A stretch of DNA of 64,000 nucleotides from an uncultured Chloroflexia bacterium (GCA_963843685.1 CAWJLO010000008.1:202027-266026), one strand, 5' to 3'. Positions 1 to 51,239 are shown, counted from the first letter of the stretch. The notes: a model not told the origin generated them from the sequence alone. Made by a program: numbers and translations.

Positions 1-2
1 GC

Positions 3-542
3 ATGAAACGCCGCCTGGAGCTCGCCCGCACACTGCTTCCCGGTCCCGAGCTGATCCTGCTCGACGAACCCACCCTCGCGCTCGACCCGGACTCTCGCCA
101 GCGCTTGTGGCAACACCTGCTGGAGGCCAATTCAGATGGCTGCACGCTGCTGATCGCGACAAACGACGTCCATGAGGCCGAACGTTTCTGCGGCACCGTC
201 GCGCTGCTCAGCGACGGGCAGCTCGTCGCTCAGGGCAGCCCGCCTGAGCTCAAGCGCGACCTCCGGCGCGACGCCGTCCGCATCGAATGGAATCACGATC
301 CGGTAGCAGAAATCGCCATCATGCAGACGTGGAGCGACGTCGGCCATGTCCGCGTCGCGGGCCGCACTACGCACGTGACGGTCGATGCAGCCAGCCCGTT
401 CCTGACACGTATCTTTCAGCAGTCGGGGGATCTCATCCGCGGCGTCCAGATCGAAGAGTCGACGCTCGAGGATGTCTATTTTCAACTCGTCGGGAAGGGC
501 ATCGCGCCCCAGCCCGAGGCAGAGGCGGAGGGAACGCCGTGA
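3..542 (+). CDS. ABC transporter ATP-binding protein, partial (5' end outside window).
   Basis: Translation carries the ABC signature/Walker B region (LELARTLL...ILLDEPTLALD) and a C-terminal extension. Stop TGA at 540-542 overlaps the next start (GTGA). Confidence 0.85.
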   Translation: MKRRLELARTLLPGPELILLDEPTLALDPDSRQRLWQHLLEANSDGCTLLIATNDVHEAERFCGTVALLSDGQLVAQGSPPELKRDLRRDAVRIEWNHDPVAEIAIMQTWSDVGHVRVAGRTTHVTVDAASPFLTRIFQQSGDLIRGVQIEESTLEDVYFQLVGKGIAPQPEAEAEGTP

Positions 543-1318
543 GTCAGATCGACGCCGTCCTCGCCTTGCTCGCCCGCGATCTGCGAGCGTTCCTCCGTTC
601 GCGGTCGCAGCTCTACTCATCGGTAGTGTTTCCGCTGATGCTCCTCGCGATCTTGGGCACGGGTGTTTCAGACGGCCTCGATCCGAAGAAGATCAAGGAT
701 TACGTGACGTTCCTGACACCTGGCATGATCGTCATGACCGCGCTCTTCTCATCGACCTTCTCCAGCGCGTCCTATTACCAGGACCGGGACTCCGGCATCT
801 TGAAGGTGTTACTGGCATCGCCGCACTCGACGCGCGTCGTGCTCCTTGGCAAGACGCTCAGCTCCGTCGTCATCGGCGCGGCGCAGGCGCTACTCGTGCT
901 AGGCGTGGCGTCACTCATCCCGGCAATCCACTTCAATTGGCAATACGGCGTCCTGCCCAGCCTCGCCCTCGCCGTCTTCTCAATTGCGGTCATCAATTTC
1001 TTCCTATCGGGCCTGGGCCAACTCCTCGCGTCGAAGATCGGCTCGATGCAGGGGTTCCACCTCGTCATGAACCTCGTGTTGTTCCCGGCGCTCTTCTTCT
1101 CGGGCGCATTCTTCCCTCTCACGAACCTCCCCGAGTGGCTCAAGATAATGGGTCGTGCGAATCCCCTGTCGTACGGGGTCGACATGATGCACCTTGCCCT
1201 CTACGCCGACGGTTCGGGCGGCTACTTCGGGCTGCCTATCGACTTCGCCGTACTTACGCTGCTCGGTGCCGCCGCGTTCTTCGCGGGCACTGGCCGGAGC
1301 GTGAGTCCCGACAGATGA
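539..1318 (+). CDS. ABC-2 family transporter permease.
   Basis: GTG start overlaps the upstream stop (GTGA). Six predicted TM helices with ABC-2 permease-like sequence (VVFPLMLLAILGTG..., PLSYGVDMM). Confidence 0.8.
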   Translation: MSQIDAVLALLARDLRAFLRSRSQLYSSVVFPLMLLAILGTGVSDGLDPKKIKDYVTFLTPGMIVMTALFSSTFSSASYYQDRDSGILKVLLASPHSTRVVLLGKTLSSVVIGAAQALLVLGVASLIPAIHFNWQYGVLPSLALAVFSIAVINFFLSGLGQLLASKIGSMQGFHLVMNLVLFPALFFSGAFFPLTNLPEWLKIMGRANPLSYGVDMMHLALYADGSGGYFGLPIDFAVLTLLGAAAFFAGTGRSVSPDR

Positions 1319-2289
1319 GATTAGGTCTCGCGCTGGTGGCGCTCTCGCTCATCGCGTCGACGCTCGCGTCGTGCGGAAGCGCCTCGTCGGGCCCGTCGGC
1401 TGTCTCGTTCCCAACGGTTGTGACCCTCGGCGACTGCGAAGTGTGTCCAGCCATAAACAACACGTCGCTCGCAGTCGGAGACAACCGCGTCTCCTTCACG
1501 CTCACGGACAAGGACGACAACCTCGTGCTCGACGCCCATGTGCATGTTCGCTTCTTCGACCTCAACGGCGCGACCCCCGTCCTTCAGTCCGAGTCTGACG
1601 CCAACTTCGTGCCCGTGACGCTGGCATACGTTGACTCACAGCTTGGTAACAAGGAGACCACGAGTGGGGAGTCGGGAGTCTACGTCACACACGCGACGTT
1701 CGACCGCCCGGGCGATTGGGGCGTGCAGGTGATGGTCACGCGAGGCGGTACGTCACTCAAACCAATCCCGTATCGATTCACTGTCCTCGTGCGCTCCGTC
1801 GAGCCCGAGGTCGGCGATCCGGCGCCGGCCAGCGTGCAACAAACGCTTGCTACCGCGGCAAGCATCGAAGATATCGACTCGTCCTACCCGCCCCGCACCG
1901 CGATGCACACGATCACGGTCGCCGATGCGCTGAAAACGGGCAAGCCGTTGGTCATCGCGTTTGCAACTCCCGCTTACTGTCAGACGCGCACCTGCGCGCC
2001 AGTCATGGACACTGTCATGGATCCGCTCTATTCGAAGTACAAAGATGAGGCAATCTTTATCCACATCGAGCCGTACGAACTCGGACCCCTCCGCCAATCA
2101 AATGTGCAGCAGCCAGTGAGGGCGACACAGGAGTGGCAGCTCAGGAGCGAGCCGTGGGTCTTCGTGGTCGGGCGCGACGGACGGATCGCCGGGAAGTTCG
2201 AGGGAATCATGGGCTTCGGTGAGGTAGAGGACGTGCTCCAACAGGCCATCGCTTCGCCAGTGCCGGCGCCGTCCGCCACGCCCCGGTGA
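1315..2289 (+). CDS. Lipoprotein with an N-terminal YtkA/CtaK(FixH)-like domain and a C-terminal thioredoxin-fold (Sco/TlpA-like) domain; putative CuA assembly factor.
   Basis: ATG overlaps the permease stop (ATGA). Lipobox LASCGS. Motifs DAHVHVRFFDLNG (YtkA-like) and AFATPAYCQTRTCAPV (thioredoxin-fold Cys pair). It lies next to the cta operon. Confidence 0.65.
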   Translation: MRLGLALVALSLIASTLASCGSASSGPSAVSFPTVVTLGDCEVCPAINNTSLAVGDNRVSFTLTDKDDNLVLDAHVHVRFFDLNGATPVLQSESDANFVPVTLAYVDSQLGNKETTSGESGVYVTHATFDRPGDWGVQVMVTRGGTSLKPIPYRFTVLVRSVEPEVGDPAPASVQQTLATAASIEDIDSSYPPRTAMHTITVADALKTGKPLVIAFATPAYCQTRTCAPVMDTVMDPLYSKYKDEAIFIHIEPYELGPLRQSNVQQPVRATQEWQLRSEPWVFVVGRDGRIAGKFEGIMGFGEVEDVLQQAIASPVPAPSATPR

Positions 2290-2413
2290 GAAGATTCCGA
2301 AGCTGCGAAGGGCGGCCGTGCCCTAGTGCTTAGAGAGCCGGCTGGATAACATAGGCTGGCTTTGGGCCCCACGACTTGGGCCCAACTCCGTCGAGCGAGG
2401 GCATTCAGGTCAG

Positions 2414-3415
2414 GTGAGCATGGAATACGTACAAACGGTCATGGCCCGAGTGGCCGCGACGAAATTCGATAAGTCGCTCGAGCCGGGTGGCTTGATGTCG
2501 GAGCTCGAAGGGCACCGCGATTTCGTTGCGGGAACGCGCGGGTCGCGGGGGATGAGCGTCACACGCTCGGCGAACCCCGAAGGCGATGTCTTGGTCGTGG
2601 TTGAGACACGCTGGGCAAACAACAACGCTTTGGCCGATTACTCCGCGAACGAGCCGAACGCGGAGTCCATCTTCCGGCGGCACGAAGACCTCCTGACCTC
2701 CGATGGCCTTCAAGTACACCGCATGCAGTCCGAGGAGACCACATCAGGCGTATCACCGACGAAGGTATACGACCGCCTTGTGCTACCGTTGGCGATTCCG
2801 TTGGGAGTGCTTACATTCGCGCTTCTCGTCATCTACGGCCTCTCCCGCATCTACCTGACGCTTCCCGGTTCGTGGGCCACCCCACTCGCCGCCGGGATCG
2901 CGCTTGGCGTGCTGGGCGTGTCTTGGTACTTCGCGTCTCACCCCGCAGTGCCGCGCTGGCAGATCATGGGGGTGTTTGTCGTCGTGCTGGGCGCGCTCGC
3001 GATCGCAGGTACGGCAGCGGCGGTGTATGACAATCAGCATGCCGAGGTGAAGTCAGTCGAATCTCCCACTCCTGCGTCAGGTACACCCACGGGGAACCAG
3101 GTCATCGACATGGCCGATTTCCAGTTCGAGGACTCCACCGGAGCGAAGAACCCCACCATCACCGTGAGCAGCGGCCAGACGACCATCGATCTCACGAACA
3201 CGGGCGCGGCGAGTCACAACATGCACATATCCAGCGCGAGCGGAGACTACGACTCAAGCATCTGCAAGGTGGGCGGTACTGACCCCTGCTCAGATCCAGC
3301 CCTCATCACCGGTGGGCAGACTGGGAGCATCACGTTGAACCTCGCGCCGGGCACGTACAAGTACCGGTGTGACTTCCACCCGACACAGATGTTCGGAACG
3401 CTCATCGTCAAGTAG
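2414..3415 (+). CDS. Membrane-anchored cupredoxin (type-1 blue copper, auracyanin/plastocyanin-like) fused to an N-terminal ABM-like domain.
   Basis: N-terminal ~110 aa is ABM-like (VLVVVETRWANNNALADY). Three TM helices follow. The C-terminal cupredoxin carries His...Cys-x2-His-x4-Met ligands (HNMHI ... YRCDFHPTQMFG). Confidence 0.75.
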   Translation: MSMEYVQTVMARVAATKFDKSLEPGGLMSELEGHRDFVAGTRGSRGMSVTRSANPEGDVLVVVETRWANNNALADYSANEPNAESIFRRHEDLLTSDGLQVHRMQSEETTSGVSPTKVYDRLVLPLAIPLGVLTFALLVIYGLSRIYLTLPGSWATPLAAGIALGVLGVSWYFASHPAVPRWQIMGVFVVVLGALAIAGTAAAVYDNQHAEVKSVESPTPASGTPTGNQVIDMADFQFEDSTGAKNPTITVSSGQTTIDLTNTGAASHNMHISSASGDYDSSICKVGGTDPCSDPALITGGQTGSITLNLAPGTYKYRCDFHPTQMFGTLIVK

Positions 3416-3440
3416 CCGAGTCGACTCTCAGGTCGAAGGA

Positions 3441-3478
3441 CCGCTCAAGATTGAGCGGTCCTTCTGCCTTTTGCGAAG
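3441..3478 (+). terminator. Intrinsic terminator hairpin after the cupredoxin gene.
   Basis: Stem GAAGGACCGCTCA / TGAGCGGTCCTTC with loop AGAT, followed by TGCCTTTT. Confidence 0.6.
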
Positions 3479-3637
3479 CTTGGTGATGGGAGCTGCGTTC
3501 CCTCCGGCCTTGAGTTGGGTGCATTCGATGGACTCGGCTTCGTCTACTTGGCGCCGCATTGCCGGCCAAATGCATCGGATGTCCGCCCAATAGGCAAGGC
3601 CGGATCGAACACGAGCCCGGAGGAGGGTGACGGAGGG

Positions 3638-4051
3638 TCAGACGATGTTACCGCCGAGCGTCGTGAGCACGACGGCGAAGATCGAGAATGCGAGTGCAAA
3701 ACCCGCGACGAACGCCGTGCTGAACAGTCGGCTATCGAACTTCAGGTGCATGAAGAACAACACGACGAGTGCGAACTTTGCGGCGGAGAGCAGGATCAGT
3801 GCGGTGATGAACGGTTTGCGAGGCATGTCTACGTAGTAGATGGCGACTTCGATACAGGTGATGACAGCCAGCACGAGGCCTACCTGGACGTACTCCATCG
3901 GCCCGGGATGACCACGGTGCACTGGCGCCGTGCCTGCGGGCTGCGATGCGGGCACCAGCAACGACATCGCGGCTATCCCGCCGCCGATCAGCCCCAGGAC
4001 CAGCAGGGGAAGCCCAACCAGCAGCGCCGGGTCGTTGAAGAAGTCGTGCAT
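3638..4051 (-). CDS. ctaF: Cytochrome c oxidase subunit IV (prokaryotic CtaF family) with a ~50-aa N-terminal single-TM extension.
   Basis: C-terminal 86 aa (MEYVQVGLVLAV...FFMHLKFD...) match the Bacillus-type CtaF family with 3 TM. The AGGAG SD sits 8 nt upstream of the ATG at 4051. Confidence 0.75.
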   Translation of the reverse strand: MHDFFNDPALLVGLPLLVLGLIGGGIAAMSLLVPASQPAGTAPVHRGHPGPMEYVQVGLVLAVITCIEVAIYYVDMPRKPFITALILLSAAKFALVVLFFMHLKFDSRLFSTAFVAGFALAFSIFAVVLTTLGGNIV

Positions 4052-4060
4052 CCTGATCTC

Positions 4061-4174
4061 CTAGTACGGTCTCAGCCAGTAGGCGAACATCGCACCGATT
4101 GCTACAACGACGCCCGCAGCGCCGACCACGAGTAGGGGTATCCCCACAAGCAAAGATGGGTCGTCAAAGAACAC
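4061..4174 (-). CDS. Small 37-aa single-TM protein between ctaE and ctaF, paralogous to the ctaF N-terminal extension.
   Basis: GTG start is preceded by GGAGAG immediately after the ctaE stop. Its stop TAG is embedded in the ctaF SD. Sequence VFFDDPSLLVGIPLLVVGAAGVVVAIGAMFAYWLRPY resembles MHDFFNDPALLVGLPLLVLGLIGGGIAAM of ctaF. It is below the ORF-track size cutoff. Confidence 0.5.
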   Translation of the reverse strand: MFFDDPSLLVGIPLLVVGAAGVVVAIGAMFAYWLRPY

Positions 4175-4186
4175 CCAGACGCTCTC

Positions 4187-4777
4187 CTACCCGACAAGGT
4201 ACACAAGCGTGAAGATTACAATCCAGACAACGTCGACGAAGTGCCAGTACAGGCCGGCCAGCTCAACATTGAGCGAGCTCTCCTCCGTGATATGGCCTCG
4301 TAGCGACCCGGCCCATAACGACATGAGGATGAGCACACCGACGGTGACATGGGCGCCGTGGAAGCCGGTGAGGACAAAGAACGTGGTCCCGAACATGTTC
4401 TGATGGAGCGTCAAACCCTCTCGGTAAAACTCCGTGAACTCAAAGGCCTGACCAGACAAGAAGACGATGCCAAGGAATGAGGTCGCCAAGAGCCACACTC
4501 GCATCTGTCGCAAGTCGCCGCGCTGGATGGCCGCGAGCGCCAGTACCATGCTGAGACTGCTCATCAGCAGGACGAAGGTGCTCACCGAGGTAAACGGGAT
4601 GTCGTAGAGGTCCTTCGGATAGGGCCCCACGACGCTCCGATCGCGGTAAAGCAGGTACGCGGAGATGAACGAGCCGAAGAACAGGCACTCCGAGCCGAGG
4701 AAGAGCCACATGAGCAGCTTCCGGTTGTCAAGGCCGGTGCTGGTTTCCAGATGCCCTGCCGTCGACGCGTGCGCCAA
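4187..4777 (-). CDS. ctaE: Cytochrome c oxidase subunit III.
   Basis: 196 aa with 5 TM and COX3-like sequence (FFVLTGFHGAHVTVG, LYWHFVDVVWIVIF). Confidence 0.9.
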   Translation of the reverse strand: MAHASTAGHLETSTGLDNRKLLMWLFLGSECLFFGSFISAYLLYRDRSVVGPYPKDLYDIPFTSVSTFVLLMSSLSMVLALAAIQRGDLRQMRVWLLATSFLGIVFLSGQAFEFTEFYREGLTLHQNMFGTTFFVLTGFHGAHVTVGVLILMSLWAGSLRGHITEESSLNVELAGLYWHFVDVVWIVIFTLVYLVG

Positions 4778-4798
4778 GACGATTCTCCTCCCCGAACG

Positions 4799-6721
4799 CT
4801 ACTCCGCGGTGGCCGGCTCGAGCGCCCAGCCGTACAGGCCGACGATCGTCACAACGGCGCCCACCGCGACGATGCCGACATCGTAAATGAGCCCGAATGC
4901 GATGAGCGGGATTCCTACCGCCGACAGCAACGGGAAGTACGACGGCGACGGCAGGTGGATGCCGTGCCCGCCTCCTTCCCCGTGGCCGTCATCACTGTGG
5001 TCCGACGCACCGGCTGGAACAGGGACCGGCACGCCCGTCGGATCCTCTGCGTACTTCCGGTGCCAGAAATCATCAAGCGCATGCACTTGCGGAATCTGCG
5101 CGAAGTTGTAAGGCGGCGGCGGAGATGGGATCGTCCACTCAAGCGTGCGCGCATCCCACGGGTCGTCCCCGGCGATCTCGCCGCTGCGGAGGCTTCGGAT
5201 CACGTTCACGATGAAGACCAGGATCGAGAAAGCGATCAAGAACGCGCCGACTGTCGCCATCATGTTCCAGAAACCCCAGCCGTACCCAGCGTCGTAGGTC
5301 TGGATCCGGCGCGGCATGCCCATGATGCCGAGCACCATCATCGGCTCAAACGTGAGGTTGAAGCCAATCAACATCGTCCAGAAGTGCAACTTCCCCAGGG
5401 GCTCGTTCAGCATGCGGCCGGTGAACTTGGGGAACCAATAGTAGGCGCCAGCGAACAGCCCAAAGATGGCGCCGCCAAACAGGACCTGATGGAAGTGCGC
5501 GACGATGTAGTACGTGTCTTGCTGCTGATAGTCGGACGGCACGATTGAGTGCGTTACGCCGGTGAGGCCGCCAATCGTGAACATGGCGATGAAGCCGACG
5601 GCGAAGTACAGCGGCGTCTTGAAGCTGATCGATCCGCCGTAGAGCGTCGCGAGCCAGTTGAAGATCTTCACGCCCGTCGGCACGGCAATGAGAATGGTGG
5701 AGACGCCGAATGCGGAGTTCGCCACCGACCCGAGGCCCGTCGTGTACATGTGATGCGCCCAGACTCCCCAACTCATGAAGCCGATCGCGACTCCTGAGAA
5801 CACGACGAATGGGTAGCCAAACAGCGGTTTTCGCGCGAACGTCGGTAGTACCTCGGACACGATCCCCATCGCAGGCAAGATGAGGATGTACACCTCCGGG
5901 TGACCAAACAACCAGAACATGTGCTGCCATAGCAGGGGCGTGCCACCCGCGGCGGCGTTGAAGAAGTTCGCGCCGAACAGCCGGTCAAATGACAGCTCGA
6001 ACAGGGCGACCGCGATAACGGGCATCGCGAAAATGATCAGGAACGACGTGACGAGCGTCATCCAGATGAAGACCGGCATCCGGAAGAGGGTCATGCCTGG
6101 CGCCCGCATGTTCAGGATTGTGACGATGAAATTGAAGCCGCCGGCGAGGGACGCGACGCCAAGGATCTGGAGTCCCAGCATCCAGTAATCGATGCCGTTG
6201 TCAGGGCTGAACCGCGTCAACGTCAACGGCGCGTAACCAAACCAGCCACCTTCCGGGGCACCAAGGTCGCCTTTGAGAATGTTCCCCCCGGTAAAGAAGC
6301 TCACGTTGAGGAAGATCCCGCCAAAGAGGAAGAGCCAGTAGCTGAAAGCATTCAGGCGCGGAAACGCCACATCCCGCGCACCGATCATGAGCGGCACAAG
6401 CAGGTTGAAGAACGCCGCGCTCAGCGGCATGACAACCAGGAAGACCATCGTGGTCCCGTGCATGGTAAAGATGCGGTTGTATCGATCGGGGTTGAGGAAT
6501 TGCTCGTTTGGCGTGGCGAGTTGAATGCGGATGAGCAGCGCCTCGAGCCCACCTACCAGGAAGAAGAAGAAGGCCGTCACACCGTACATGATGCCGATGC
6601 GCTTGTGGTCGACGGTCGCGATCCAGCTCCAGATGCCCTTATAGGTCGCAGCGTCGTCGCGGATCTCGCGCATCGCCTGGCCCATGGTCACGCGTCGCGG
6701 TGTGTAGGTTGCGCCTGCCAT
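4799..6721 (-). CDS. ctaD: Cytochrome c oxidase subunit I with a C-terminal two-TM extension.
   Basis: Heme-copper oxidase subunit I sequence (WFFGHPEVYILILP, HHMYTTG, His ligands). The start is uncertain. ATG at 6721 has GGAG upstream and lies 2 nt after the ctaC stop. Alternative starts are 6685 or 6796. Confidence 0.85.
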   Translation of the reverse strand: MAGATYTPRRVTMGQAMREIRDDAATYKGIWSWIATVDHKRIGIMYGVTAFFFFLVGGLEALLIRIQLATPNEQFLNPDRYNRIFTMHGTTMVFLVVMPLSAAFFNLLVPLMIGARDVAFPRLNAFSYWLFLFGGIFLNVSFFTGGNILKGDLGAPEGGWFGYAPLTLTRFSPDNGIDYWMLGLQILGVASLAGGFNFIVTILNMRAPGMTLFRMPVFIWMTLVTSFLIIFAMPVIAVALFELSFDRLFGANFFNAAAGGTPLLWQHMFWLFGHPEVYILILPAMGIVSEVLPTFARKPLFGYPFVVFSGVAIGFMSWGVWAHHMYTTGLGSVANSAFGVSTILIAVPTGVKIFNWLATLYGGSISFKTPLYFAVGFIAMFTIGGLTGVTHSIVPSDYQQQDTYYIVAHFHQVLFGGAIFGLFAGAYYWFPKFTGRMLNEPLGKLHFWTMLIGFNLTFEPMMVLGIMGMPRRIQTYDAGYGWGFWNMMATVGAFLIAFSILVFIVNVIRSLRSGEIAGDDPWDARTLEWTIPSPPPPYNFAQIPQVHALDDFWHRKYAEDPTGVPVPVPAGASDHSDDGHGEGGGHGIHLPSPSYFPLLSAVGIPLIAFGLIYDVGIVAVGAVVTIVGLYGWALEPATAE

Positions 6722-6723
6722 AG

Positions 6724-7521
6724 CTACTGCACTCCGTGTAGCGCCAGTGTTGCGGGTGTACCGCCGCGCTGCGCGCTCGCTTGCTGCTGGAGCCAAGCGT
6801 CATAGTCTTGCTGTGACTCGACCACGAATGTGAAGCGCATGGTCGCATGGTCAAGTCCGCAGAATTCAGCGCACTGGCCGTGGAACGTACCCGTCTGCGT
6901 TGCCTTCAGCCACATGTGGTTGTCGCGTCCCGGAATAACGTCCGTCTTTCCTCCCAACTTGGGCATCCAGAAGCTGTGGATGACGTCAGCCGACTGGAGC
7001 TTGAATTCGATGTCACGATTGACGGGAATGTGGGCGTAGACTCCATCCGGGTCGTTCGCCAGGATCTGAATCGGCGACCCGCCGTTCGGATTTGGGTAAT
7101 CAAACTCCCAGAACCACTGGTGCCCGACGACGTTGACCGTCATGGCGTCCTTCGGCGTCTTGCCCAGATGCACGATACCCGAGATGGTCGGCGGAACGAA
7201 GAACGCGAGGAGCAGAACCGGCGCGATGGTCCAGCCGATCTCCAGCGCGTTGTTTCCGTGCGTCTGCGGCGGCAGACCGGGGTCGCCCTTCTTGCGCCGG
7301 AAGCGGATGAGGATGAACAAGAGCATCCCCTCTACCAGCACGAGGATGAGGAGCGCCGGCCACATCACAAAGAGGAAGAGATTCTTCTGGTCCTTGGCCA
7401 CAGTGCCGGCAGGGGCGAACGTGTTTTGCGGGCTCGAGAACACGCCGCAGCTCGAAAGCATTACGGCCAAGCCGATGAGAGAGAGAACGGCCAGAAGGCG
7501 CGGCAGACGGCGATCGCGCAC
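6724..7521 (-). CDS. ctaC: Cytochrome c oxidase subunit II (CuA centre only, no cytochrome c domain), lipoprotein.
   Basis: GTG at 7521 has a perfect GGAGG 9 nt upstream. Lipobox LSSCG. CuA motif HSFWMPKLGGK...HGQCAEFCGLDHATM. No CxxCH. Confidence 0.85.
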   Translation of the reverse strand: MRDRRLPRLLAVLSLIGLAVMLSSCGVFSSPQNTFAPAGTVAKDQKNLFLFVMWPALLILVLVEGMLLFILIRFRRKKGDPGLPPQTHGNNALEIGWTIAPVLLLAFFVPPTISGIVHLGKTPKDAMTVNVVGHQWFWEFDYPNPNGGSPIQILANDPDGVYAHIPVNRDIEFKLQSADVIHSFWMPKLGGKTDVIPGRDNHMWLKATQTGTFHGQCAEFCGLDHATMRFTFVVESQQDYDAWLQQQASAQRGGTPATLALHGVQ

Positions 7522-7740
7522 GCTAGAGAACCTCCGGCGCGCACACCACGGGTCGACAACTGGCGTCGGCCACGAGAGCTCGGCTGGCGCGGTGCCCGGG
7601 ACGCAGCATGCGGACTCCCTCGGTTCAAGTCGCCGACGGCGAATTATTCCCGCCGCATCGCGTACGGTCAAGGGTTCGTGACTTTTCCCACAATTGACGC
7701 GACCAACGAACGGCGCGTGCGGCCGAATCTGAGGCAGGCG

Positions 7741-8649
7741 TTATCTGAGGATGAGTTGGTCGAGCGCAACGGCGATGAAGAGGAAGGCGAGGTAGTAGAT
7801 CGAGACCCGGAACACACCCATCGCCGCTCCCGGTTCTTCGCTCGACTGCAGCATCCAAGCCTCCCGCACGAATGCCGCGCCAAGCACGACCGCGCTCGCC
7901 CCGTAGATCCAGCCCACGGTACCCGTGACCAGCAGTGAAAGCGACATGGGCACGAGCAATGCGGCGTAAACCAAGATCTGCCGCTTCGTTGAAGCCATAC
8001 TCGCAACAACCGGGAGCATGGGGACGCCCGCGCGGGCGTAATCGTCGCGATACTTGATGGAAAGCGACCAGAAATGAGGCGGCGTCCAGACAAAGATCAC
8101 GCCAAAGAGGATCACGGCCGGCAGGCCGACGCTCCCCGTCACCGCGGCCCAGGCGACGAGCGGGGGCACAGCACCGGCTGCGCCACCGATGACGATGTTC
8201 TGGGCCGTCGTACGCTTCAGCCACATTGTGTAGACGAAGACGTAGAACAGCGTAGCGCTCAGTGCCAGCAAGGCCGCGAGCACGTTCGACGAAAGCGCCA
8301 GCAGCGCGAATGCGGCAACCTCGAGCCCGACGGCGAAGATCAGCGCGCTCGCCGGCTCCAGACGACCGAGCGGCAACGGCCTTCCTTGCGTACGATGCAT
8401 GATCTGGTCGATGTCGCGATCGATATAGCAGTTGATCGCGTTCGCCCCACCGGCGGCGAGAGAGCCGCCGATCACAGTAGCTGCCATCAGCCAGAGCGAC
8501 GGCACCCCCTGCGCGGCGAGGACCATCGTCGGGATCGTGGTGATGAGCAGGAGCGATATGATGCGCGGTTTTGTGAGCGCGAGGTAGGCCGACGCAAGCT
8601 CACGCCAGGAGAGCGCGGGGCGACGAACGGCCGAACTTATCGCACCCAT
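7741..8649 (-). CDS. ctaB: Protoheme IX farnesyltransferase (heme O synthase).
   Basis: UbiA-family sequence (NCYIDRDIDQIMHRTQGRPLP...). The ATG at 8649 gives a 302-aa protein; the upstream in-frame extension is a GC-frame artefact. Confidence 0.85.
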   Translation of the reverse strand: MGAISSAVRRPALSWRELASAYLALTKPRIISLLLITTIPTMVLAAQGVPSLWLMAATVIGGSLAAGGANAINCYIDRDIDQIMHRTQGRPLPLGRLEPASALIFAVGLEVAAFALLALSSNVLAALLALSATLFYVFVYTMWLKRTTAQNIVIGGAAGAVPPLVAWAAVTGSVGLPAVILFGVIFVWTPPHFWSLSIKYRDDYARAGVPMLPVVASMASTKRQILVYAALLVPMSLSLLVTGTVGWIYGASAVVLGAAFVREAWMLQSSEEPGAAMGVFRVSIYYLAFLFIAVALDQLILR

Positions 8650-9587
8650 TGGGCCATCCGTTCCTGACCGGCGCGTTCGTCGGCGCCGGATTCGACATCG
8701 CGGCCCGGGAGGTAGAACGCCAACGCACTCGTGAGCACCGTTGCGCACCACAGAAGCGCCGCGAGCGAAAGATGCGCAACGACGACCCCCGCCGCGAGAT
8801 CGGTCCAGATGTTCGCGGCACCCAGGAGGGCTTGCGCGATAAACGCCATCCCGGCGAAGACGGTGAGCGCGATCAGCGCCGGTTGCCGGCGGCGCTCCTC
8901 GAAGGCCACGTAGATCAGCGCCAGCAGCAGTATCCCGAGCAACCCGGCGAGCAAGCGGTGGAGCATGTGCAGCCCGACGGCGCTGCCTCCGCCTGGCAGC
9001 ACGCTCCCGTTGCAAAGGGGCCAGCCGTGGCACGCAAGCGATGCGTCCGTGCCGCTGATGTAGGACCCGAGCACGAGAGTCGCAAAGGCGGCACCCGCGC
9101 TCAACATCGCGAGGCGGCCGAACGCGGTCTCCGACGTCAGCGGCAGGGCCCGCACCCCCCGTTCGCGCATCAACGAGATCGTCAATGTCACGATCATCAC
9201 TCCCATGAACGCCATAGCAGTCGCCAAGTGCGTAGCGACGATGCCGGCGGGAAGCTCCTTCTTGACTGTCACGCCGCCGAGGATGATCTGCGCAAGCAGG
9301 AGGACGCCGGCGGCAAATGCAAGCCAGAAAACGAGCGGATGCTTACGCTCGGTTTTGAACGTAAAGAAGGTCACGCCGAGGAAGAGGAGTCCAACCACGA
9401 ACGCGGCGGTCCTGTGGGAGAATTCGATGAGCGTGTGCTCGTCCGCGGAGGGGACGAACTTGCCGTGGCAGGTTGGCCAGTCGGGGCATCCCAAACCAGA
9501 ACCAGTGGCGCGTACCGTGCCGCCGACCACCACCAGGACGAACGTGGCCACGATGGTGATCAGGAGCAGCCGCTGGAAGGAGGTCAT
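8637..9587 (-). CDS. ctaA: Heme A synthase (COX15/CtaA).
   Basis: Eight TM with two Cys pairs (GCPDWPTCHG, CHGWPLCNG) and conserved His. It overlaps the ctaB start by 13 nt. The start at M59 (9587) was chosen because the upstream sequence is not protein-like. Confidence 0.8.
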   Translation of the reverse strand: MTSFQRLLLITIVATFVLVVVGGTVRATGSGLGCPDWPTCHGKFVPSADEHTLIEFSHRTAAFVVGLLFLGVTFFTFKTERKHPLVFWLAFAAGVLLLAQIILGGVTVKKELPAGIVATHLATAMAFMGVMIVTLTISLMRERGVRALPLTSETAFGRLAMLSAGAAFATLVLGSYISGTDASLACHGWPLCNGSVLPGGGSAVGLHMLHRLLAGLLGILLLALIYVAFEERRRQPALIALTVFAGMAFIAQALLGAANIWTDLAAGVVVAHLSLAALLWCATVLTSALAFYLPGRDVESGADERAGQERMAQWVR

Positions 9588-9814
9588 AGCCGAGCGCGCG
9601 CAAGAGACCGGCGCGGTTTCACTCCTGACTGAAGGTGCGATACGGACATGAGGCCGTTCGTGACCGCCATCACGAGTAACACGAGGCACGTGCGGGGTCA
9701 AGCGAGATGGGAGTTCATGAAGGATCACCCGCCGCGTTGACACTGAACCGAACGCCGCCAAGAATAACTCGGCCTGACGGAGAGCGCTGAACGGGGAAGG
9801 AAGGTTGACACAAC

Positions 9815-20623: not shown

Positions 20624-22807
20624 ATGATTCAACGCGGTGCGTCCCGCGGCATCACTCGTACGACTGCAGTCGCGTTCGGCGTGGCACTCGCGGCGCTATT
20701 GCTGATCGCGCTCTTTCCGATCTTCCCGCGGCAGTTCAGCGTGCGGGTGGGCGACACAGCCTCGCGGACGCTGCGGGCGCCGCGGGCGCTGTCGTTCGTG
20801 AGTGCGTCGCAGACCGCGGCAGACAAGAAACAGGCGGAGGACGCTGTGCCTCCGACGTATGTGTACGACCCCTCGATCCGCACGGCGCAGCTCGCGGAGT
20901 ACGACAAGACCGTCGCGCAGATCGACGAGATCCGCACCGAGAACGCCGACTATCAGCACAAGAACGACGCCCTGGCCCGACTGCAGTTGTCGCCGCGCAG
21001 CATCGACACGGCGATCGGACTATCGGATGAGCGCTGGCAGGCCGTGGCCGCGGAGGGGCGGCGCGTGCTCTCGCAGGTCCTGAACGCGTCGATCGACGAC
21101 GCCAGCGTAGCCGCCACGAAGGACAGCGTCGACTCGCAGATTGCGCCACAGTTCATCGCGGATGAAGCACTCCTAGCGGCGGAGCTGGTCCGACCGCTCA
21201 TCGTTTCAACACAGAAGGTGGATCCGGACAAGACGCAGCAGGCGAAGGCGGCGGCGAGCGCGGCCATCCCGCCGCACGTGGTCAGCGTGGAGAAAGACGA
21301 GACCATCTTGCAGCCCGGCAAGCCCGTCGACGCGCTGACCGTGGAGAAGTTGAAGGAGGAAGGGCTGCTCTCGAACCGCATCGTGATCCGCAACGTGATT
21401 GCGGTCGCGATTGTATCGGCGGTGATCGCGGCGTGCCTGGCGGCATATCTCGTCGTGCTGCGGCCCAAGGGGATCGATTCGGAGCGCCACCTCCTAGCGC
21501 TGGCGCTGGTGGTCGCCTTGCCGCTGCTCGTTGCGAAGTTCTATCTGCCGCTGGTGCTTCCGGACGAGTCGAGACACTTCCTGGCGTTCATGCTGCCGGT
21601 GGCGGTTGCGCCGATCCTGATCGCGGCACTGCTCGAGACGGACGTGGCGGTCGTGGTGTCGCTGGTGATCGGGGCGTTGATCGCGTTCGTGAGCGCGTTC
21701 CTACCGGACATTTCCCTGGTGGCGTCTGTCGGCCCGCTGGACTCGATGCGCCTGATGCTCGTGTACGGAGTCGCGCCGCTGGTGGGCGTGTTCCTGGTGC
21801 ACAGGGCCGACCGGCTCAATCGCTTCCTCACCGCGGGGCTCGCCACCGGCGCGGCGAGCGGCGCTCTACTGGTGGCGACGTGGCTCATCGACGGGGACAG
21901 GACCAACGTCGACCTGGCGTGGATTGCGTTCGCGTGCGGCATGAACGGCGCGGTCGCGGGAGTGCTGGCGGCGGGCGTGTTCGTCACGCTCGGGGTGCTC
22001 TTCGGCGTCACGACGCGGATCCAGCTCATGGAACTGTCGCAACTCAACGCGCCGCTGTTGCGGCGGCTGCAGGACGAGGCACCGGGCACCTTCCACCACA
22101 GCATCATCGTCGGGAACCTGGCTGAGCGCGCGGCGGACCTGATCGGGGCCGACGCGCTGCTGACAAGGGTCGGCTGCTATTACCACGACATCGGCAAGGT
22201 GATGCAGCCGGGAATGTATATCGAAAACATCGCGGGGGCGGAGTCGCCGCACGACGGGATGTCGCCGGAGGAGAGCGCGAGCGTGATCCAGCAGCACGTG
22301 CTCGGCGGCGTGGAGTTGGCGCGGCGGCAGCGGCTGCCGGCGCGGGTACAGGCGTTCATTCCGGAGCATCACGGCACGAGGTTGGTCGCCTTCTTTTATC
22401 GCAAGGCGGCGGAGAAGAACCCGGAGGTAGACCCGGCCCTGTATCAGTACCCCGGGCCGAAGCCACAGTCACGTGAGACCGCAATCGTGATGCTGGCGGA
22501 CTCGACGGAGGCAGTGATCCGCGCGAGTGAAGACCGGTCGACGGAGCGCATCAACCAACTCGTAGACGAAGTGATCGCAGAGCGCGTGGCAGAGGGGCAG
22601 TTGGACGAAAGCGACCTGACACTGCGAGACCTGCGGACGATCGCGGAGTCATTCAAGACGACGATGCGGGCGGTGTACCACCCGCGCGTGAAGTACCCGG
22701 AGCCGACGCCGATGGAGGCACGGCGGCGCGTCCTGCGGCTGCCGATGCGCACGCTGGGCGGGCAGCGGGTGGACGTGCCGGACCCGCGGCGCCGCAAGCT
22801 CGATTGA
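20624..22807 (+). CDS. 7TM receptor with intracellular HD/HDIG phosphohydrolase domain (PgpH/YqfF-like).
   Basis: Large extracellular N-terminal region, seven TM helices, and a C-terminal HD domain (HHSIIVGNLAERAAD...YYHDIGK). Confidence 0.85.
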   Translation: MIQRGASRGITRTTAVAFGVALAALLLIALFPIFPRQFSVRVGDTASRTLRAPRALSFVSASQTAADKKQAEDAVPPTYVYDPSIRTAQLAEYDKTVAQIDEIRTENADYQHKNDALARLQLSPRSIDTAIGLSDERWQAVAAEGRRVLSQVLNASIDDASVAATKDSVDSQIAPQFIADEALLAAELVRPLIVSTQKVDPDKTQQAKAAASAAIPPHVVSVEKDETILQPGKPVDALTVEKLKEEGLLSNRIVIRNVIAVAIVSAVIAACLAAYLVVLRPKGIDSERHLLALALVVALPLLVAKFYLPLVLPDESRHFLAFMLPVAVAPILIAALLETDVAVVVSLVIGALIAFVSAFLPDISLVASVGPLDSMRLMLVYGVAPLVGVFLVHRADRLNRFLTAGLATGAASGALLVATWLIDGDRTNVDLAWIAFACGMNGAVAGVLAAGVFVTLGVLFGVTTRIQLMELSQLNAPLLRRLQDEAPGTFHHSIIVGNLAERAADLIGADALLTRVGCYYHDIGKVMQPGMYIENIAGAESPHDGMSPEESASVIQQHVLGGVELARRQRLPARVQAFIPEHHGTRLVAFFYRKAAEKNPEVDPALYQYPGPKPQSRETAIVMLADSTEAVIRASEDRSTERINQLVDEVIAERVAEGQLDESDLTLRDLRTIAESFKTTMRAVYHPRVKYPEPTPMEARRRVLRLPMRTLGGQRVDVPDPRRRKLD

Positions 22808-50583: not shown

Positions 50584-51239
50584 ATGCCGTCTTCGGCCTT
50601 CCGCGCCAACACGATATCGGCGGGCAATCCCCACACACCGATCCGACGCACCGTGCCGATCTCGAAGCCGGCGGCGGCGGCGCTGCTTGCCGCGTAGATC
50701 GGGCGACAGTCAAGGAGGCGAGGGAAGAGCGCATGCCCGCGCTCGTACAGTCGAGTCATGAGGTTGGGCGAGTCGCGCGTCAGGCTGAGGTTGACGAAGC
50801 GTCCGCCGGGCTTCAGCACGCGTCGAATTTCAGTCAGGGCGATCGCGATGGCGTCCGTGGGGAGGAGCTCCAGCACGAAGCTCATGAACACGAGGTCGAA
50901 CCGGTCACCTGCGACAGGCAGCCGCGTTGCGTCGCCGAGCGCGAGCATGGCGTGGCCGTCACAGCGGCGCCGGGCCTCGCGCAGCATGCCGGGGGCGAGG
51001 TCAACGCCGACGGCGGCGCCGTTGGCGCCGACCGCCGCGGCGAGACGGGCGAGCGCGCGGCCGGGGCCCGGCCCGATTTCGAGCGCGGCCTCGCCCGGGC
51101 GCGCAGCGGCGAGATCGACGGCGCGGCGGATGGCGGATCTCTCGAACACGCCTTCCGTGCGATCGTAGATGCGGCTGAGACGGTCGTAGGTGCGCTGCGC
51201 GTCGCGCGAGGTGGTGCGGACGGGCAGGATCTCGGGCAT
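50580..51239 (-). CDS. Class I SAM-dependent methyltransferase.
   Basis: ALEIGPGPGR SAM motif. Translationally coupled to the P-type ATPase. Confidence 0.8.
   Translation of the reverse strand: MPEILPVRTTSRDAQRTYDRLSRIYDRTEGVFERSAIRRAVDLAAARPGEAALEIGPGPGRALARLAAAVGANGAAVGVDLAPGMLREARRRCDGHAMLALGDATRLPVAGDRFDLVFMSFVLELLPTDAIAIALTEIRRVLKPGGRFVNLSLTRDSPNLMTRLYERGHALFPRLLDCRPIYAASSAAAAGFEIGTVRRIGVWGLPADIVLARKAEDGI

What the first reader, a model, noticed from the sequence alone, without database searches (positions are those of the whole stretch)
1315..3415. Copper-delivery and electron-donor module beside an aa3 oxidase that has no cytochrome c domain.
A lipoprotein fuses a YtkA/CtaK-like domain to a thioredoxin-fold domain with an unusual CQTRTC pair. 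It is followed by a type-1 cupredoxin anchored by 3 TM and fused to an N-terminal ABM-like domain. Both lie downstream of an ABC ATPase/ABC-2 permease pair and face the ctaCDEF operon. CtaC has only the CuA centre (no CxxCH). A membrane cupredoxin (auracyanin-like) is therefore a plausible direct electron donor, and the fused lipoprotein a CuA-insertion chaperone. The ABC pair could be a NosFY-like Cu-handling transporter. I do not recognise the ABM-TM-cupredoxin architecture.
Basis: partly seen in the sequence, partly recalled or inferred. Interest (0 to 1): 0.7.

Follow-up and report, generated by a model that had tools for sequence, protein, structure and literature searches.

The report
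Membrane blue-copper protein beside aa3 oxidase
Next to the oxygen-reducing aa3 oxidase genes of an uncultured Dehalococcoidia (Chloroflexota) bacterium sit a membrane-anchored blue copper protein of unusual build, probably an electron carrier or extra subunit of that oxidase, and a lipoprotein coupled to an ABC exporter that probably helps mature copper sites; both are new variants of known themes, not new kinds of system.

Summary
Window 3..3415 holds two units that face the ctaA/B/C/D/E/F cluster.

Unit 1 is a translationally coupled operon: ABC ATPase, ABC-2 permease and lipoprotein. The lipoprotein joins a YtkA-like beta-sandwich to a thioredoxin fold with an invariant CX4C.

Unit 2 is a separate gene for a cytoplasmic ABM fold, three TM helices and an outward type-1 cupredoxin. 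Its His-Cys-His-Met ligands are invariant.

The cupredoxin–cta link is the strongest signal. In 29 of 34 Dehalococcoidia species loci the genes are convergent neighbours, and all 28 CtaC there lack haem c. The three-helix anchor is a wider family. It carries one or two cupredoxins, some sulfocyanin-like. In Acidimicrobiales its gene overlaps ctaC.

An electron-carrier or subunit role at the oxidase is therefore well supported. "Substitute for the missing haem c" is not: the Acidimicrobiales CtaC has haem c. Relatives also have a Rieske/cyt b operon with a cyt c–cupredoxin fusion.

The lipoprotein lacks CtaK-type Cu ligands. It resembles TlpA/ResA reductases more than Sco. The ABC pair is DrrAB/NodIJ-like, with no NosD or NosY signature.

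Verdict: a real new variant of known kinds, of moderate interest.

The parts
3..542 (+). ABC transporter ATPase, C-terminal part (the gene starts upstream of the window)
   Evidence: NCBIfam drrA 101 bits and NodI 86 bits; Pfam DrrA1-3_C and ABC_tran. Its stop overlaps the permease start (GTGA).
539..1318 (+). ABC-2 type permease (DrrB/NodJ-like, six TM helices)
   Evidence: Pfam ABC2_membrane 113.7 bits. ABC2_membrane_2 (NosY-type) reaches only 35 bits and CcmB 34.8 bits. NCBIfam drrB 153 bits.
1315..2289 (+). Lipoprotein, 324 aa. It has a lipobox Cys20, a YtkA-like beta-sandwich (about residues 30-158) and a TlpA/ResA-like thioredoxin fold (about 160-313). Its start overlaps the permease stop (ATGA).
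   Evidence: The model has pLDDT 85.8 and pTM 0.83.
1978..1995 (+). CX4C motif (C222-Q-T-R-T-C227) at the active-site position of the thioredoxin fold
   Evidence: Both Cys are invariant in 30 close and 7 distant homologues, as are H250, E252, P253, P280 and W281. The loop 223-226 is modelled with low confidence.
2420..3415 (+). ABM-3TM-cupredoxin protein (331 aa from the ATG at 2420; the ORF opens with GTG at 2414)
   Evidence: P0001 (331 aa) is the identical database entry. A 125-nt gap separates it from the lipoprotein gene.
2420..2731 (+). Cytoplasmic ABM (dimeric alpha+beta barrel) domain, residues 3-106
2759..3040 (+). Conserved three-helix membrane anchor, residues 116-209
   Evidence: Invariant R121, P129, S144, R145, Y147, L148 and Q183. 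The module recurs without the ABM domain in hundreds of cupredoxin proteins.
3098..3412 (+). Extracytoplasmic type-1 cupredoxin, residues 229-333. The ligand codons are H268 (3215-3217), C319 (3368-3370), H322 (3377-3379) and M326 (3389-3391).
   Evidence: Pfam Copper-bind 35.2 bits and Cupredoxin_1 29.1 bits. The PDB profile search hits lipid-modified azurin (8.8e-8), plastocyanin, amicyanin and auracyanin A. The four ligands are invariant.
3435..3464 (.). 13-bp GC-rich hairpin followed by a T-rich tail, between the convergent cupredoxin and ctaF genes (terminator-like)
3638..4051 (-). ctaF (prokaryotic oxidase subunit IV)
   Evidence: Pfam COX4_pro 44.9 bits.
4187..4777 (-). ctaE (subunit III)
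   Evidence: ORF translation. tblastn to the COX3-annotated genes of L001 and L002 gives 81% identity.
4799..6796 (-). ctaD (subunit I; the likely start is ATG at 6721). It has a C-terminal extension like actinobacterial subunit IV.
   Evidence: ORF. The C-terminal 133 aa hit Pfam Cyt_c_ox_IV at 26.7 bits against a cut-off of 26.9.
6724..7671 (-). ctaC (subunit II; lipoprotein-type signal LSSC). It has a CuA site only and no CxxCH. The exact start is uncertain.
   Evidence: TIGR02866 196.5 bits, Pfam COX2 and COX2_TM. The CuA motif CAEFCGLDHATM is present.
7741..9033 (-). ctaB (haem O synthase; the ORF start is over-extended)
   Evidence: ORF. 73-83% identity to UbiA-annotated genes in L002 and L004.
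8637..9761 (-). ctaA (haem A synthase; the ORF start is over-extended)
   Evidence: ORF. 69-80% identity to COX15-CtaA-annotated genes in L002 and L004.

Best explanation
Two separate units sit beside the aa3 oxidase operon of an aerobic Dehalococcoidia-class bacterium.

**(A) The gene at 2420..3415**
- It makes a membrane-anchored blue copper protein.
- Shown: a complete His-Cys-His-Met type-1 site on a plastocyanin/amicyanin-like cupredoxin, a conserved three-helix anchor, an N-terminal ABM fold, and very conserved adjacency to ctaCDEF.
- Inferred: the cupredoxin faces outward and works at the oxidase as an electron-transfer partner or supernumerary subunit. It passes electrons towards CuA of CtaC.
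- Inferred: the electrons probably come from the Rieske/cytochrome b complex. In relatives the c-type subunit of that complex is itself fused to a cupredoxin and is followed by a lipoprotein cupredoxin, which would make a largely copper-based relay.
- Inferred: the cytoplasmic ABM domain is an accessory. It is absent from many homologues, and it most likely dimerises or positions the protein rather than catalysing a reaction.

**(B) The operon 3..2289 (ABC ATPase, ABC-2 permease, lipoprotein)**
- Shown: the genes are translationally coupled. The lipoprotein combines a YtkA-like beta-sandwich that lacks conserved metal ligands with a TlpA/ResA-like thioredoxin fold. That fold carries an invariant CX4C and invariant His250 and Glu252.
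- Inferred: on the outer face of the membrane it acts through its Cys pair as a thiol-redox and/or copper-handling maturation factor for cysteine-ligated copper sites. The candidates are CuA of CtaC and the type-1 site and disulfide loop of the cupredoxin.
- The exporter is of the general DrrAB/NodIJ type and its substrate is unknown. A reductant or a metal is only a guess.
For: **Cupredoxin**
- Among 44 non-redundant full-length loci from GTDB species genomes, 29 of the 34 with at least 3 kb downstream have ctaF/E/D convergent within 6-8 kb. One more has the operon 6 kb away.
- All 28 CtaC in those loci lack CxxCH. Almost no CxxCH ORFs lie within 10 kb.
- The anchor module is a family of its own: 626 representatives at E<1e-3. 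It carries one or two cupredoxins, and some match the sulfocyanin SoxE model.
- In three Acidimicrobiales loci the homologue lies directly upstream of ctaC on the same strand. In L059 and L060 its end overlaps the ctaC start. It is preceded by a Cyt_c_ox_IV-like segment (18-24 bits, weak).
- Twelve related loci carry the operon cyt b, SU-IV-like, Rieske, cyt c::cupredoxin, lipoprotein cupredoxin. At least nine MAGs hold both this operon and the cta-linked gene.

**Lipoprotein**
- Fold and motifs.
- 4-nt overlaps with the ABC genes, in the window and in relatives.
- The trio stays next to ctaF/ctaB/ctaA even where the cupredoxin is absent (L084).
- Of 80 metagenome loci, homologues with at least 49% identity mostly keep the order ABC, ABC-2, lipoprotein, cupredoxin, cta.
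- Two distant homologues lie beside soft-metal genes: a P1B-ATPase, CsoR and HMA in one, and HMA, MerB and Redoxin in the other.
- No Sco or PCuAC family is listed among the called genes within about 8-10 kb in L001, L002, L003, L082, L083 and L084.
Against: - There is no direct evidence for electron transfer or for physical association with the oxidase.
- The Acidimicrobiales homologues precede a CtaC that has a haem c domain, so the cupredoxin is not simply a stand-in for haem c.
- Relatives have other cupredoxins in the bc operon that could reduce CuA directly.
- Three or four full-length loci have no cta genes within 10 kb.
- The subunit-IV-like fusion signal is below Pfam thresholds. The pairwise match to the CtaD tail is not significant (E 0.46).
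- Part of the synteny is shared housekeeping order, with nadE on the other side.
- The lipoprotein motif is CX4C, not the CXXC of TlpA/ResA or the CXXXC of Sco. The sequence matches to thioredoxin families are weak (Thioredoxin_2 at 14.8 bits). The loop between the Cys is modelled with low confidence.
- More distant homologues (33-44% identity) mostly sit in unrelated contexts such as gap-ffh.
- About half of the cupredoxin/cta loci lack the lipoprotein.
Confidence: 0.55

Rival explanations
1. The lipoprotein is a true copper chaperone: a natural fusion of the two Bacillus CuA-assembly lipoproteins, CtaK (YtkA domain) and Sco (thioredoxin fold). It binds Cu through Cys222, Cys227 and His250 and loads CuA. 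The ABC pair supplies or handles the copper, as NosFY does.
For: - The Pfam YtkA match is above the cut-off, and 29 of 30 homologues match.
- CtaK and Sco are reported to act together in CuA assembly (PMC9145763, PMC13344008).
- Two Cys and a His are invariant on a thioredoxin fold.
- The beta-sandwich has weak structural matches to the copper proteins PmoD and CrdA (Foldseek E about 1.5e-3).
- Two distant homologues lie beside CopA/CsoR/HMA or HMA/MerB genes.
- The gene sits next to cta.
Against: - The YtkA-like domain (residues 30-158) has no invariant His, Met or Cys, and there is no His-rich tail. The His-rich loop of distant homologues is missing in the window's clade.
- The Sco signature CXXXC...H is not met.
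- SCO1/SenC (PF02630) is not among the families listed for any of 30 members at E<=0.05.
- The ABC pair is best matched by DrrAB/NodIJ models. The NosY-type family scores only 35 bits, and there is no NosD.
Confidence: 0.25
2. The cupredoxin is not an electron donor. It is an AcoP-like accessory that stabilises or helps assemble the oxidase, or it belongs to a different redox pathway and is merely a conserved neighbour. The ABM domain would then be the functional part, for example a cytoplasmic enzyme or a haem- or quinone-binding sensor.
For: - The ABM and anchor parts are as conserved as the copper domain (mean column identity 62% over residues 1-215).
- The bc operon of relatives already supplies two cupredoxins.
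- The Acidimicrobiales CtaC keeps its own haem c entry point.
- AcoP is a cox-operon-encoded membrane cupredoxin. This is my own knowledge; the paper PMC4059628 was listed but not read.
Against: - A full, invariant His-Cys-His-Met site with the adjacent Asn is the hallmark of electron-transfer cupredoxins.
- The ABM domain is dispensable in many anchor-cupredoxin relatives.
- No catalytic ABM signature was found. The Trp is kept, but Tyr76 sits 9 residues after it, about where many ABM/IsdG proteins have a His (from memory, no direct alignment).
Confidence: 0.2
3. The lipoprotein is an extracytoplasmic thiol enzyme unrelated to copper. It could be a BCP/PrxQ-like peroxiredoxin, a family that also has a CX4C pair, or a ResA/CcmG-like reductase for cytochrome c maturation. 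The ABC-2 exporter would be an unrelated drug, lipid or polymer exporter.
For: - The CX4C spacing equals that of BCP/PrxQ (my own knowledge).
- The top Foldseek hits are ResA and related oxidoreductases.
- The best sequence hits are a Thermus thiol-disulfide isomerase and CcmG.
- The permease has a secondary CcmB match at 34.8 bits.
- Relatives do make c-type cytochromes.
Against: - AhpC-TSA is not among the families matched. Redoxin matches only 2 of 30 members at E 0.03.
- The Prx PxxxTxxC context is not present (the sequence is AFATPAFC).
- The conserved neighbours are cta genes, not resBC, ccsBA or ccm genes.
Confidence: 0.15

Closest known systems
Sulfocyanin (SoxE) of the Sulfolobus SoxM terminal oxidase, and halocyanin of haloarchaea
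   Same: Both are membrane-anchored type-1 copper proteins that serve as the oxidase-proximal electron carrier or subunit in place of soluble cytochrome c (my own knowledge). Some proteins with the same three-helix anchor match the Pfam SoxE model (P0274 at 36 bits, P0279 at 29.8 bits).
   Different: The window's copper domain matches Copper-bind and Cupredoxin_1, not SoxE. It is bacterial. It has a three-helix anchor and a cytoplasmic ABM domain. Its gene is not inside the oxidase operon but convergent to it.
Auracyanin A/B of Chloroflexus (the ACIII to oxidase carrier)
   Different: The ligand loop here is C-x2-H-x3-M. From memory, that is plastocyanin/amicyanin-like rather than the longer azurin/auracyanin loop. 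The anchor is three helices plus an ABM domain, not a single helix or lipid anchor. Relatives pair it with a Rieske/cyt b complex, not with ACIII.
AcoP of Acidithiobacillus ferrooxidans
   Same: A membrane-bound cupredoxin encoded with cytochrome oxidase genes and associated with the oxidase (my own knowledge; PMC4059628 was listed).
   Different: AcoP has a single helix, a 'green' copper site and no ABM domain. No homology beyond the shared fold was tested here.
CtaK (YtkA) plus Sco of Bacillus subtilis
   Same: Both are lipoproteins on the outer face that cooperate in CuA assembly. One has a YtkA domain and the other a thioredoxin fold (PMC9145763, PMC13344008). The window's protein carries both fold types in one chain next to the cta genes.
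   Different: The CtaK His/Met ligands and His-rich tail are absent. The thioredoxin domain has CX4C, gives no Sco sequence or profile match, and is structurally closer to TlpA/ResA.
TlpA / ResA / CcmG (DsbE) extracytoplasmic thiol:disulfide oxidoreductases
   Different: The active site is CX4C instead of CXXC. There is an extra N-terminal beta-sandwich domain. The gene is translationally coupled to an ABC-2 exporter.
NosDFY-NosL copper-delivery machinery of N2O reductase
   Same: An ABC ATPase, an ABC-2 permease and a lipoprotein are encoded together next to a CuA-containing enzyme.
   Different: There is no NosD. The gene upstream in relatives is a P-loop NTPase. The permease matches the general ABC-2/DrrB models far better than the NosY-type family. 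The lipoprotein fold is unrelated to NosL.

Membership tests
Type-1 (blue) copper cupredoxins, plastocyanin/azurin family (PF00127) | Cupredoxin beta-sandwich recognised by the family model | tested here: met
Type-1 (blue) copper cupredoxins, plastocyanin/azurin family (PF00127) | Ligand set His ... Cys-x(n)-His-x(n)-Met | tested here: met
   H268, C319, H322 and M326 are invariant in 32 sequences. N269 follows the first His.
Type-1 (blue) copper cupredoxins, plastocyanin/azurin family (PF00127) | Copper bound, about 600 nm absorbance, high redox potential, extracytoplasmic location | not testable with these tools
   Outward topology is inferred only from three predicted helices and the absence of a signal peptide.
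Auracyanin | Azurin-type long ligand loop, and a single N-terminal helix or lipid anchor | tested here: not met
   The loop is CDFHPTQM (C-x2-H-x3-M). The anchor is three helices preceded by an ABM domain.
ABM / dimeric alpha+beta barrel superfamily (PF03992) | Ferredoxin-like beta-alpha-beta fold of about 100 residues | tested here: met
IsdG/HmoA-type haem-degrading monooxygenases | Catalytic Asn-Trp-His triad | tested here: inconclusive
   W67 is invariant. Tyr76 lies 9 residues after the Trp, about where ABM/IsdG proteins have a His (the triad and its spacing are from memory), and Thr8/Gln7 sit near the N-terminus. No direct alignment to IsdG was made. The JGI name 'HmoA' is only the COG label.
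CtaK / YtkA-like (PF13115) | Lipoprotein with a YtkA domain | tested here: met
   Lipobox LASC20. PF13115 30.6 bits (cut-off 25.9), but only profile positions 59-85 of 85 align. 29 of 30 homologues match.
CtaK / YtkA-like (PF13115) | Conserved His and Met residues (His118 is essential in CtaK) and a His-rich C-terminal tail for copper | tested here: not met
   There is no invariant His, Met or Cys in residues 30-158. The tail is Pro/Ala-rich. The CxxC at 41-44 is present only in some members. The CtaK features are taken from PMC9145763.
Sco (SCO1/SenC) | Thioredoxin fold with CXXXC and a distal His; recognised by the family model | tested here: not met
TlpA/ResA/CcmG-type thiol:disulfide oxidoreductases | Membrane-tethered extracytoplasmic thioredoxin fold of this subtype | tested here: met
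TlpA/ResA/CcmG-type thiol:disulfide oxidoreductases | CXXC active site | tested here: not met
   An invariant C-x4-C occupies the same position. In the alignment to thioredoxin h, WCGPC lines up with FC.RSRTC.
BCP/PrxQ peroxiredoxins | PxxxTxxC peroxidatic motif with a resolving Cys five residues on; AhpC-TSA/Redoxin model match | tested here: not met
NosDFY(L) copper ABC system | NosY-type permease and NosF ATPase | tested here: not met
   PF12679 scores 35 bits against 113.7 for PF01061. The best NCBIfam matches are DrrA/DrrB, NodI/NodJ and PedC.
NosDFY(L) copper ABC system | Periplasmic beta-helix NosD encoded with the transporter | tested here: not met
   In relatives the gene before the ATPase is a 438-aa cytoplasmic P-loop protein. 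The window itself is cut inside the ATPase gene.
A-type haem-copper oxidase (aa3) with a CuA-only subunit II | CtaC with a CuA motif and no CxxCH; ctaD/E/F plus haem A genes | tested here: met
   TIGR02866 196.5 bits. CAEFCGLDHATM is present and there is no CxxCH. ctaA and ctaB are adjacent. All 28 CtaC in related loci lack CxxCH.

The most novel reading that the evidence does not exclude
The ABM-3TM-cupredoxin, and more widely the three-helix-anchor cupredoxin family of Chloroflexota and Acidimicrobiia, could be an integral and so far unseen subunit of A-type oxidases. It would complete an almost all-copper electron wire: Rieske/b complex, then its cyt c::cupredoxin subunit, then the lipoprotein cupredoxin, then the anchored cupredoxin, then CuA. 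The cytoplasmic ABM domain would couple electron entry to a cytoplasmic cue or ligand. In parallel, the YtkA-thioredoxin lipoprotein with its CX4C, together with its ABC-2 exporter, would form a new exporter-coupled maturation system for cysteine-ligated copper centres.
Probability: 0.2. Interest if true: 0.7.

Novelty: new variant of a known kind. Interest (0 to 1): 0.45.

Why it matters
Aerobic Dehalococcoidia are abundant in soil, groundwater and the ocean but are almost all uncultured, so their respiratory chains are known only from gene lists.

The data point to three things:
- A conserved membrane blue-copper protein is tied to their haem-c-less aa3 oxidase.
- They have a Rieske/b complex whose cytochrome c is fused to a cupredoxin.
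- The three-helix cupredoxin anchor is shared with Acidimicrobiia.

If confirmed, this would describe a copper-rich alternative to the actinobacterial bcc-aa3 solution for life without soluble cytochrome c. It would also add an uncharacterised thioredoxin-fold lipoprotein and ABC exporter to the list of candidate oxidase or copper-site maturation factors. Nothing here overturns current concepts.

Tried and rejected
1. **NosDFY analogy.** A 438-aa gene precedes the ABC genes in 8 relatives and has the size and position of NosD. It turned out to be a cytoplasmic P-loop NTPase (GASGNGKTT motif; only weak AAA hits).
3. **CtaK-type copper site.** I looked for conserved His, Met or Cys in the beta-sandwich and found none. 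The CxxC at residues 41-44 is clade-specific. The original CtaK paper could not be read, so the CtaK ligand positions could not be mapped residue by residue.
4. **BCP/PrxQ idea from the CX4C spacing.** It has no family-model support.
5. **IsdG-type haem oxygenase reading of the ABM domain.** The JGI label is only the generic COG name. The triad was not confirmed.
6. **Direct look-up of the window's own contig.** Taxonomy therefore rests on the homologues' records, which are Dehalococcoidia/Chloroflexota MAGs.
7. **Fusion of the CtaD-tail motif HLPxPS to ABM-cupredoxin proteins (P0303, P0320).** The pairwise match is not significant (E 0.46). Only the weak Pfam Cyt_c_ox_IV hits remain.
8. **Rfam and tRNA scans.** Nothing in the intergenic regions; only tRNA-Pro at 38422-38498.
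9. **Promoter scan.** No sigma-70-like site in 1..4200.
10. **ThiX of the Corynebacterium supercomplex as an analogue of the lipoprotein.** The paper gives no thioredoxin function.
11. **Domain-specific structure search for the beta-sandwich.** This was not possible because models cannot be cropped. Foldseek gave only weak hits: PmoD, CrdA and Ig-like domains.

Full report
**1. What is in the sequence**

The + strand of window 1..3415 carries four genes.
- The C-terminal 179 codons of an ABC ATPase lie at 3..542.
- An ABC-2 permease lies at 539..1318 (Pfam ABC2_membrane, 113.7 bits).
- A 324-aa lipoprotein lies at 1315..2289.
- After a 125-nt gap, a 331/333-aa protein lies at 2420 (ATG) or 2414 (GTG)..3415.

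The first three genes overlap by four bases each (GTGA at 539-542, ATGA at 1315-1318). They therefore form one translationally coupled operon. The fourth gene stands apart. It is followed by a 13-bp GC-rich hairpin with a T-rich tail at 3435-3464.

Convergent on the − strand lie ctaF, ctaE, ctaD, ctaC, ctaB and ctaA (3638..9761).
- CtaC matches TIGR02866 at 196.5 bits.
- It has the CuA motif CAEFCGLDHATM and no CxxCH.
- No large ORF in the whole 64 kb has CxxCH.

**2. The cupredoxin protein**

- Pfam Copper-bind (35.2 bits) and Cupredoxin_1 (29.1 bits) match residues 246-333.
- A profile of 32 homologues hits lipid-modified azurin (8.8e-8), plastocyanins, amicyanin and auracyanin A in the PDB.
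- The four type-1 ligands H268, C319, H322 and M326 (CDFHPTQM) are invariant, and so is N269.
- The AlphaFold model (pLDDT 86.5) has three parts:
  - an ABM-type beta-alpha-alpha-beta-beta-alpha-alpha-beta domain at residues 4-106;
  - three long helices at 116-209;
  - the cupredoxin at 229-332.
- Pfam ABM is matched by 14 of 32 homologues, though not by the window copy itself.

There is no signal peptide and the helix count is odd. The ABM domain should therefore be cytoplasmic and the copper domain outside. This is an inference.

**3. Family and context of the cupredoxin protein**

- The protein belongs to a tight family: 179 clusters at 90% identity, all about 325-360 aa. They are annotated at most as "cupredoxin domain-containing protein" or with the COG labels "plastocyanin/heme-degrading monooxygenase HmoA". 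All named records are Dehalococcoidia/Chloroflexota MAGs.
- In GTDB species genomes I obtained 44 non-redundant full-length loci.
  - 34 of them have at least 3 kb downstream. In 29 of these, ctaF/E/D lie convergent within 6-8 kb. One more has the operon 6 kb away in the other orientation.
  - All 28 CtaC recognised in these loci lack CxxCH.
  - CxxCH ORFs are almost absent within 10 kb.
- Upstream, the deeper-branching loci have nadE directly before the cupredoxin gene. The ABC, ABC-2 and lipoprotein genes lie between nadE and the cupredoxin gene in part of the clade:
  - 16 of 34 loci have the lipoprotein;
  - 18 of 34 have the permease;
  - 3 have the ABC pair without the lipoprotein;
  - 1 has the lipoprotein without the ABC pair.

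The cupredoxin–cta link is thus the older and tighter one. The two units are separable.

**4. The anchor is a family of its own**

A profile of residues 1-215 was searched against 1.84 billion cluster representatives. It found 626 proteins at E<1e-3. Many match only profile positions about 105-211, which is the three helices with the RLxLPLLIP...YGLSRIYL signature. In those proteins the anchor carries one or two cupredoxin domains. Some of these match the sulfocyanin model SoxE (P0274 at 36 bits, P0279 at 29.8 bits).

Other proteins have extra N-terminal helices with weak similarity to actinobacterial oxidase subunit IV: P0313 at 23.7 bits and L059 at 18.3 bits, against a cut-off of 26.9. The window's own CtaD carries such a segment at its C-terminus (26.7 bits).

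In three Acidimicrobiales loci the anchor-cupredoxin gene lies directly upstream of ctaC on the same strand. In L059 and L060 its end overlaps the start of ctaC.

These facts argue that the family acts at, and probably on, the oxidase. The subunit-IV signal is sub-threshold. A pairwise match between the CtaD tail and P0303 is not significant (E 0.46).

**5. Two findings that limit the "substitute for haem c" argument**

1. The Acidimicrobiales CtaC that follows the homologue does have a C-terminal CxxCH domain.
2. Relatives encode a second set of cupredoxins in a Rieske/cytochrome b operon. Its order is cyt b (PF00033, 159 bits), an SU-IV-like protein, Rieske (34.7 bits), a membrane-anchored monohaem cytochrome c fused to a cupredoxin, and a lipoprotein cupredoxin.
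   - The operon occurs in 12 loci.
   - At least nine MAGs hold both this operon and the cta-linked gene.

The clade therefore does make c-type cytochromes. It also has several candidate copper carriers between complex III and CuA. The most economical reading is a relay in which the ABM-3TM-cupredoxin is the oxidase-side member. A stabilising or assembly role like that of AcoP cannot be excluded.

**6. The lipoprotein**

- It has a lipobox, LASC20.
- Pfam YtkA scores 30.6 bits (cut-off 25.9), but only over the last 27 of 85 profile positions. 29 of 30 homologues match.
- The model (pLDDT 85.8, pTM 0.83) shows a beta-sandwich at 43-158 and a thioredoxin fold at 195-313.
- Foldseek ranks ResA-type proteins first. 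For the sandwich it gives only weak matches, to Ig-like domains and to the copper proteins PmoD and CrdA.
- The profile search of the PDB finds a Thermus thiol-disulfide isomerase (E 0.0022), CcmG and thioredoxins, but no Sco at E<=10.
- Invariant down to 37% identity are C222 and C227 (AFATPAFC-x4-C), H250, E252, P253, R260, P280 and W281. H198 is nearly invariant.
- The sandwich has no invariant His, Met or Cys. By contrast, CtaK is described as having conserved His/Met residues, an essential His118 and a His-rich tail (PMC9145763).
- More distant homologues do carry a His-rich loop (HTH..H) that the window's clade has lost.

The "CtaK-like plus thioredoxin fold" description is therefore right at the fold level. 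The defining copper features of CtaK and of Sco are not met. A fusion of the two fold types that cooperate in Bacillus CuA assembly (PMC13344008) remains suggestive. A TlpA-like redox role, a Cys2-His copper site or both are possible.

**7. Context of the lipoprotein**

- Close homologues (at least 49% identity) in 80 metagenome loci mostly keep the order ABC, ABC-2, lipoprotein, cupredoxin, cta.
- In L084 the trio faces ctaF/ctaB/ctaA without any cupredoxin gene.
- No Sco or PCuAC family is listed among the called genes within about 8-10 kb in L001, L002, L003, L082, L083 and L084. A Caa3_CtaG gene is present in L001-L003.
- Homologues at 33-44% identity are mostly in unrelated places such as gap-ffh.
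- Two of about nine homologues inspected lie by soft-metal genes. One sits by a P1B-ATPase, CsoR and HMA. The other sits by HMA, MerB and Redoxin.

**8. The ABC pair**

- Best matches are DrrA/DrrB, NodI/NodJ and the PedC-type permease.
- The NosY-type family ABC2_membrane_2 (35 bits) and CcmB (34.8 bits) are only secondary hits.
- In relatives the preceding gene is a 438-aa cytoplasmic P-loop NTPase, not NosD.

The NosFY analogy rests only on the generic architecture. The substrate is unknown.

**9. Comparison, novelty and score**

Membrane-bound blue copper proteins that feed terminal oxidases are established; examples are auracyanin, sulfocyanin, halocyanin and the rusticyanin/AcoP systems. 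Thioredoxin-fold and YtkA-type lipoproteins in CuA assembly are established too.

Four things appear new:
- the ABM plus three-helix-anchor architecture and its near-universal pairing with a haem-c-less aa3 operon in Dehalococcoidia;
- the recognition of the anchor as a family shared with Acidimicrobiia;
- the cyt c::cupredoxin subunit of the Rieske/b operon;
- a YtkA-thioredoxin lipoprotein with CX4C that is translationally coupled to an ABC-2 exporter.

Full-text searches found no paper that describes these.

I rate this a new variant of known kinds, with interest 0.45. My confidence in the combined explanation is 0.55. It is higher for the cupredoxin's link to the oxidase and lower for the lipoprotein's precise chemistry.

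Noticed in passing
window 42131..42910 (+): A heliorhodopsin gene (Pfam PF18761, 322.6 bits, full length) lies in this Dehalococcoidia-like contig.
   Followed up: no
window 45986..46811 (+): The Caa3-type CtaG oxidase assembly gene lies 42 kb from the cta operon. It is split between two reading frames at about 46291-46293, which means a frameshift, a pseudogene or an assembly error. In relatives L001 and L002, CtaG sits between the cupredoxin gene and ctaF.
   Followed up: partly
window 4799..5200 (-): The C-terminal extension of CtaD resembles actinobacterial oxidase subunit IV (Pfam Cyt_c_ox_IV 26.7 bits, cut-off 26.9). This looks like a subunit I-IV fusion. A separate COX4_pro-type ctaF is also present.
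   Followed up: partly
L067 6551..10884 (also L057, L058, L061, L064-L066, L069, L072, L076, L077): Related Dehalococcoidia have the operon cyt b, SU-IV-like, Rieske, [TM + monohaem cytochrome c + cupredoxin fusion], lipoprotein cupredoxin. This is a complex III whose c subunit carries a blue copper domain.
   Followed up: partly
L059 9247..11381; L060 7291..9857; L081 2604..4679: In Acidimicrobiales a protein with subunit-IV-like helices, the three-helix anchor and a cupredoxin is encoded directly upstream of ctaC on the same strand. In L059 and L060 its end overlaps the ctaC start. The CtaC there has a haem c (CxxCH) domain.
   Followed up: partly
L134 8560..9831; L136 5554..6585; L147 8980..9951; L138 2382..3398; L158 about 1956..2843: Distant homologues of the lipoprotein (37-42% identity) carry a His-rich loop (HTH..H) in the YtkA-like domain that the window's clade lacks. 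The L158 copy lies next to a P1B-ATPase, CsoR and HMA genes. The L134 copy lies next to HMA, MerB and Redoxin genes.
   Followed up: partly
L002 5705..7021 (and 7 other loci): A conserved 438-aa cytoplasmic P-loop NTPase with no Pfam family above threshold precedes the ABC ATPase gene in several relatives. The window is cut before this position.
   Followed up: partly
window 46987..48061 (+) and 48088..50634 (-): An ion-channel-like ORF (Pfam Ion_trans_2) follows the CtaG remnant. From its translation alone (not checked against any family model), the large ORF next to it looks like a P-type ATPase.
   Followed up: no
window 20624..22807 (+): A 7TM receptor with an intracellular HD hydrolase domain (7TMR-HDED, 7TM-7TMR_HD and HD).
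   Followed up: no
window 1435..1446 (lipoprotein residues 41-44): A second Cys pair (CEVC) sits at the start of the beta-sandwich. It is present only in some family members; most have G-D-x-F there. Its meaning is unknown.
   Followed up: partly
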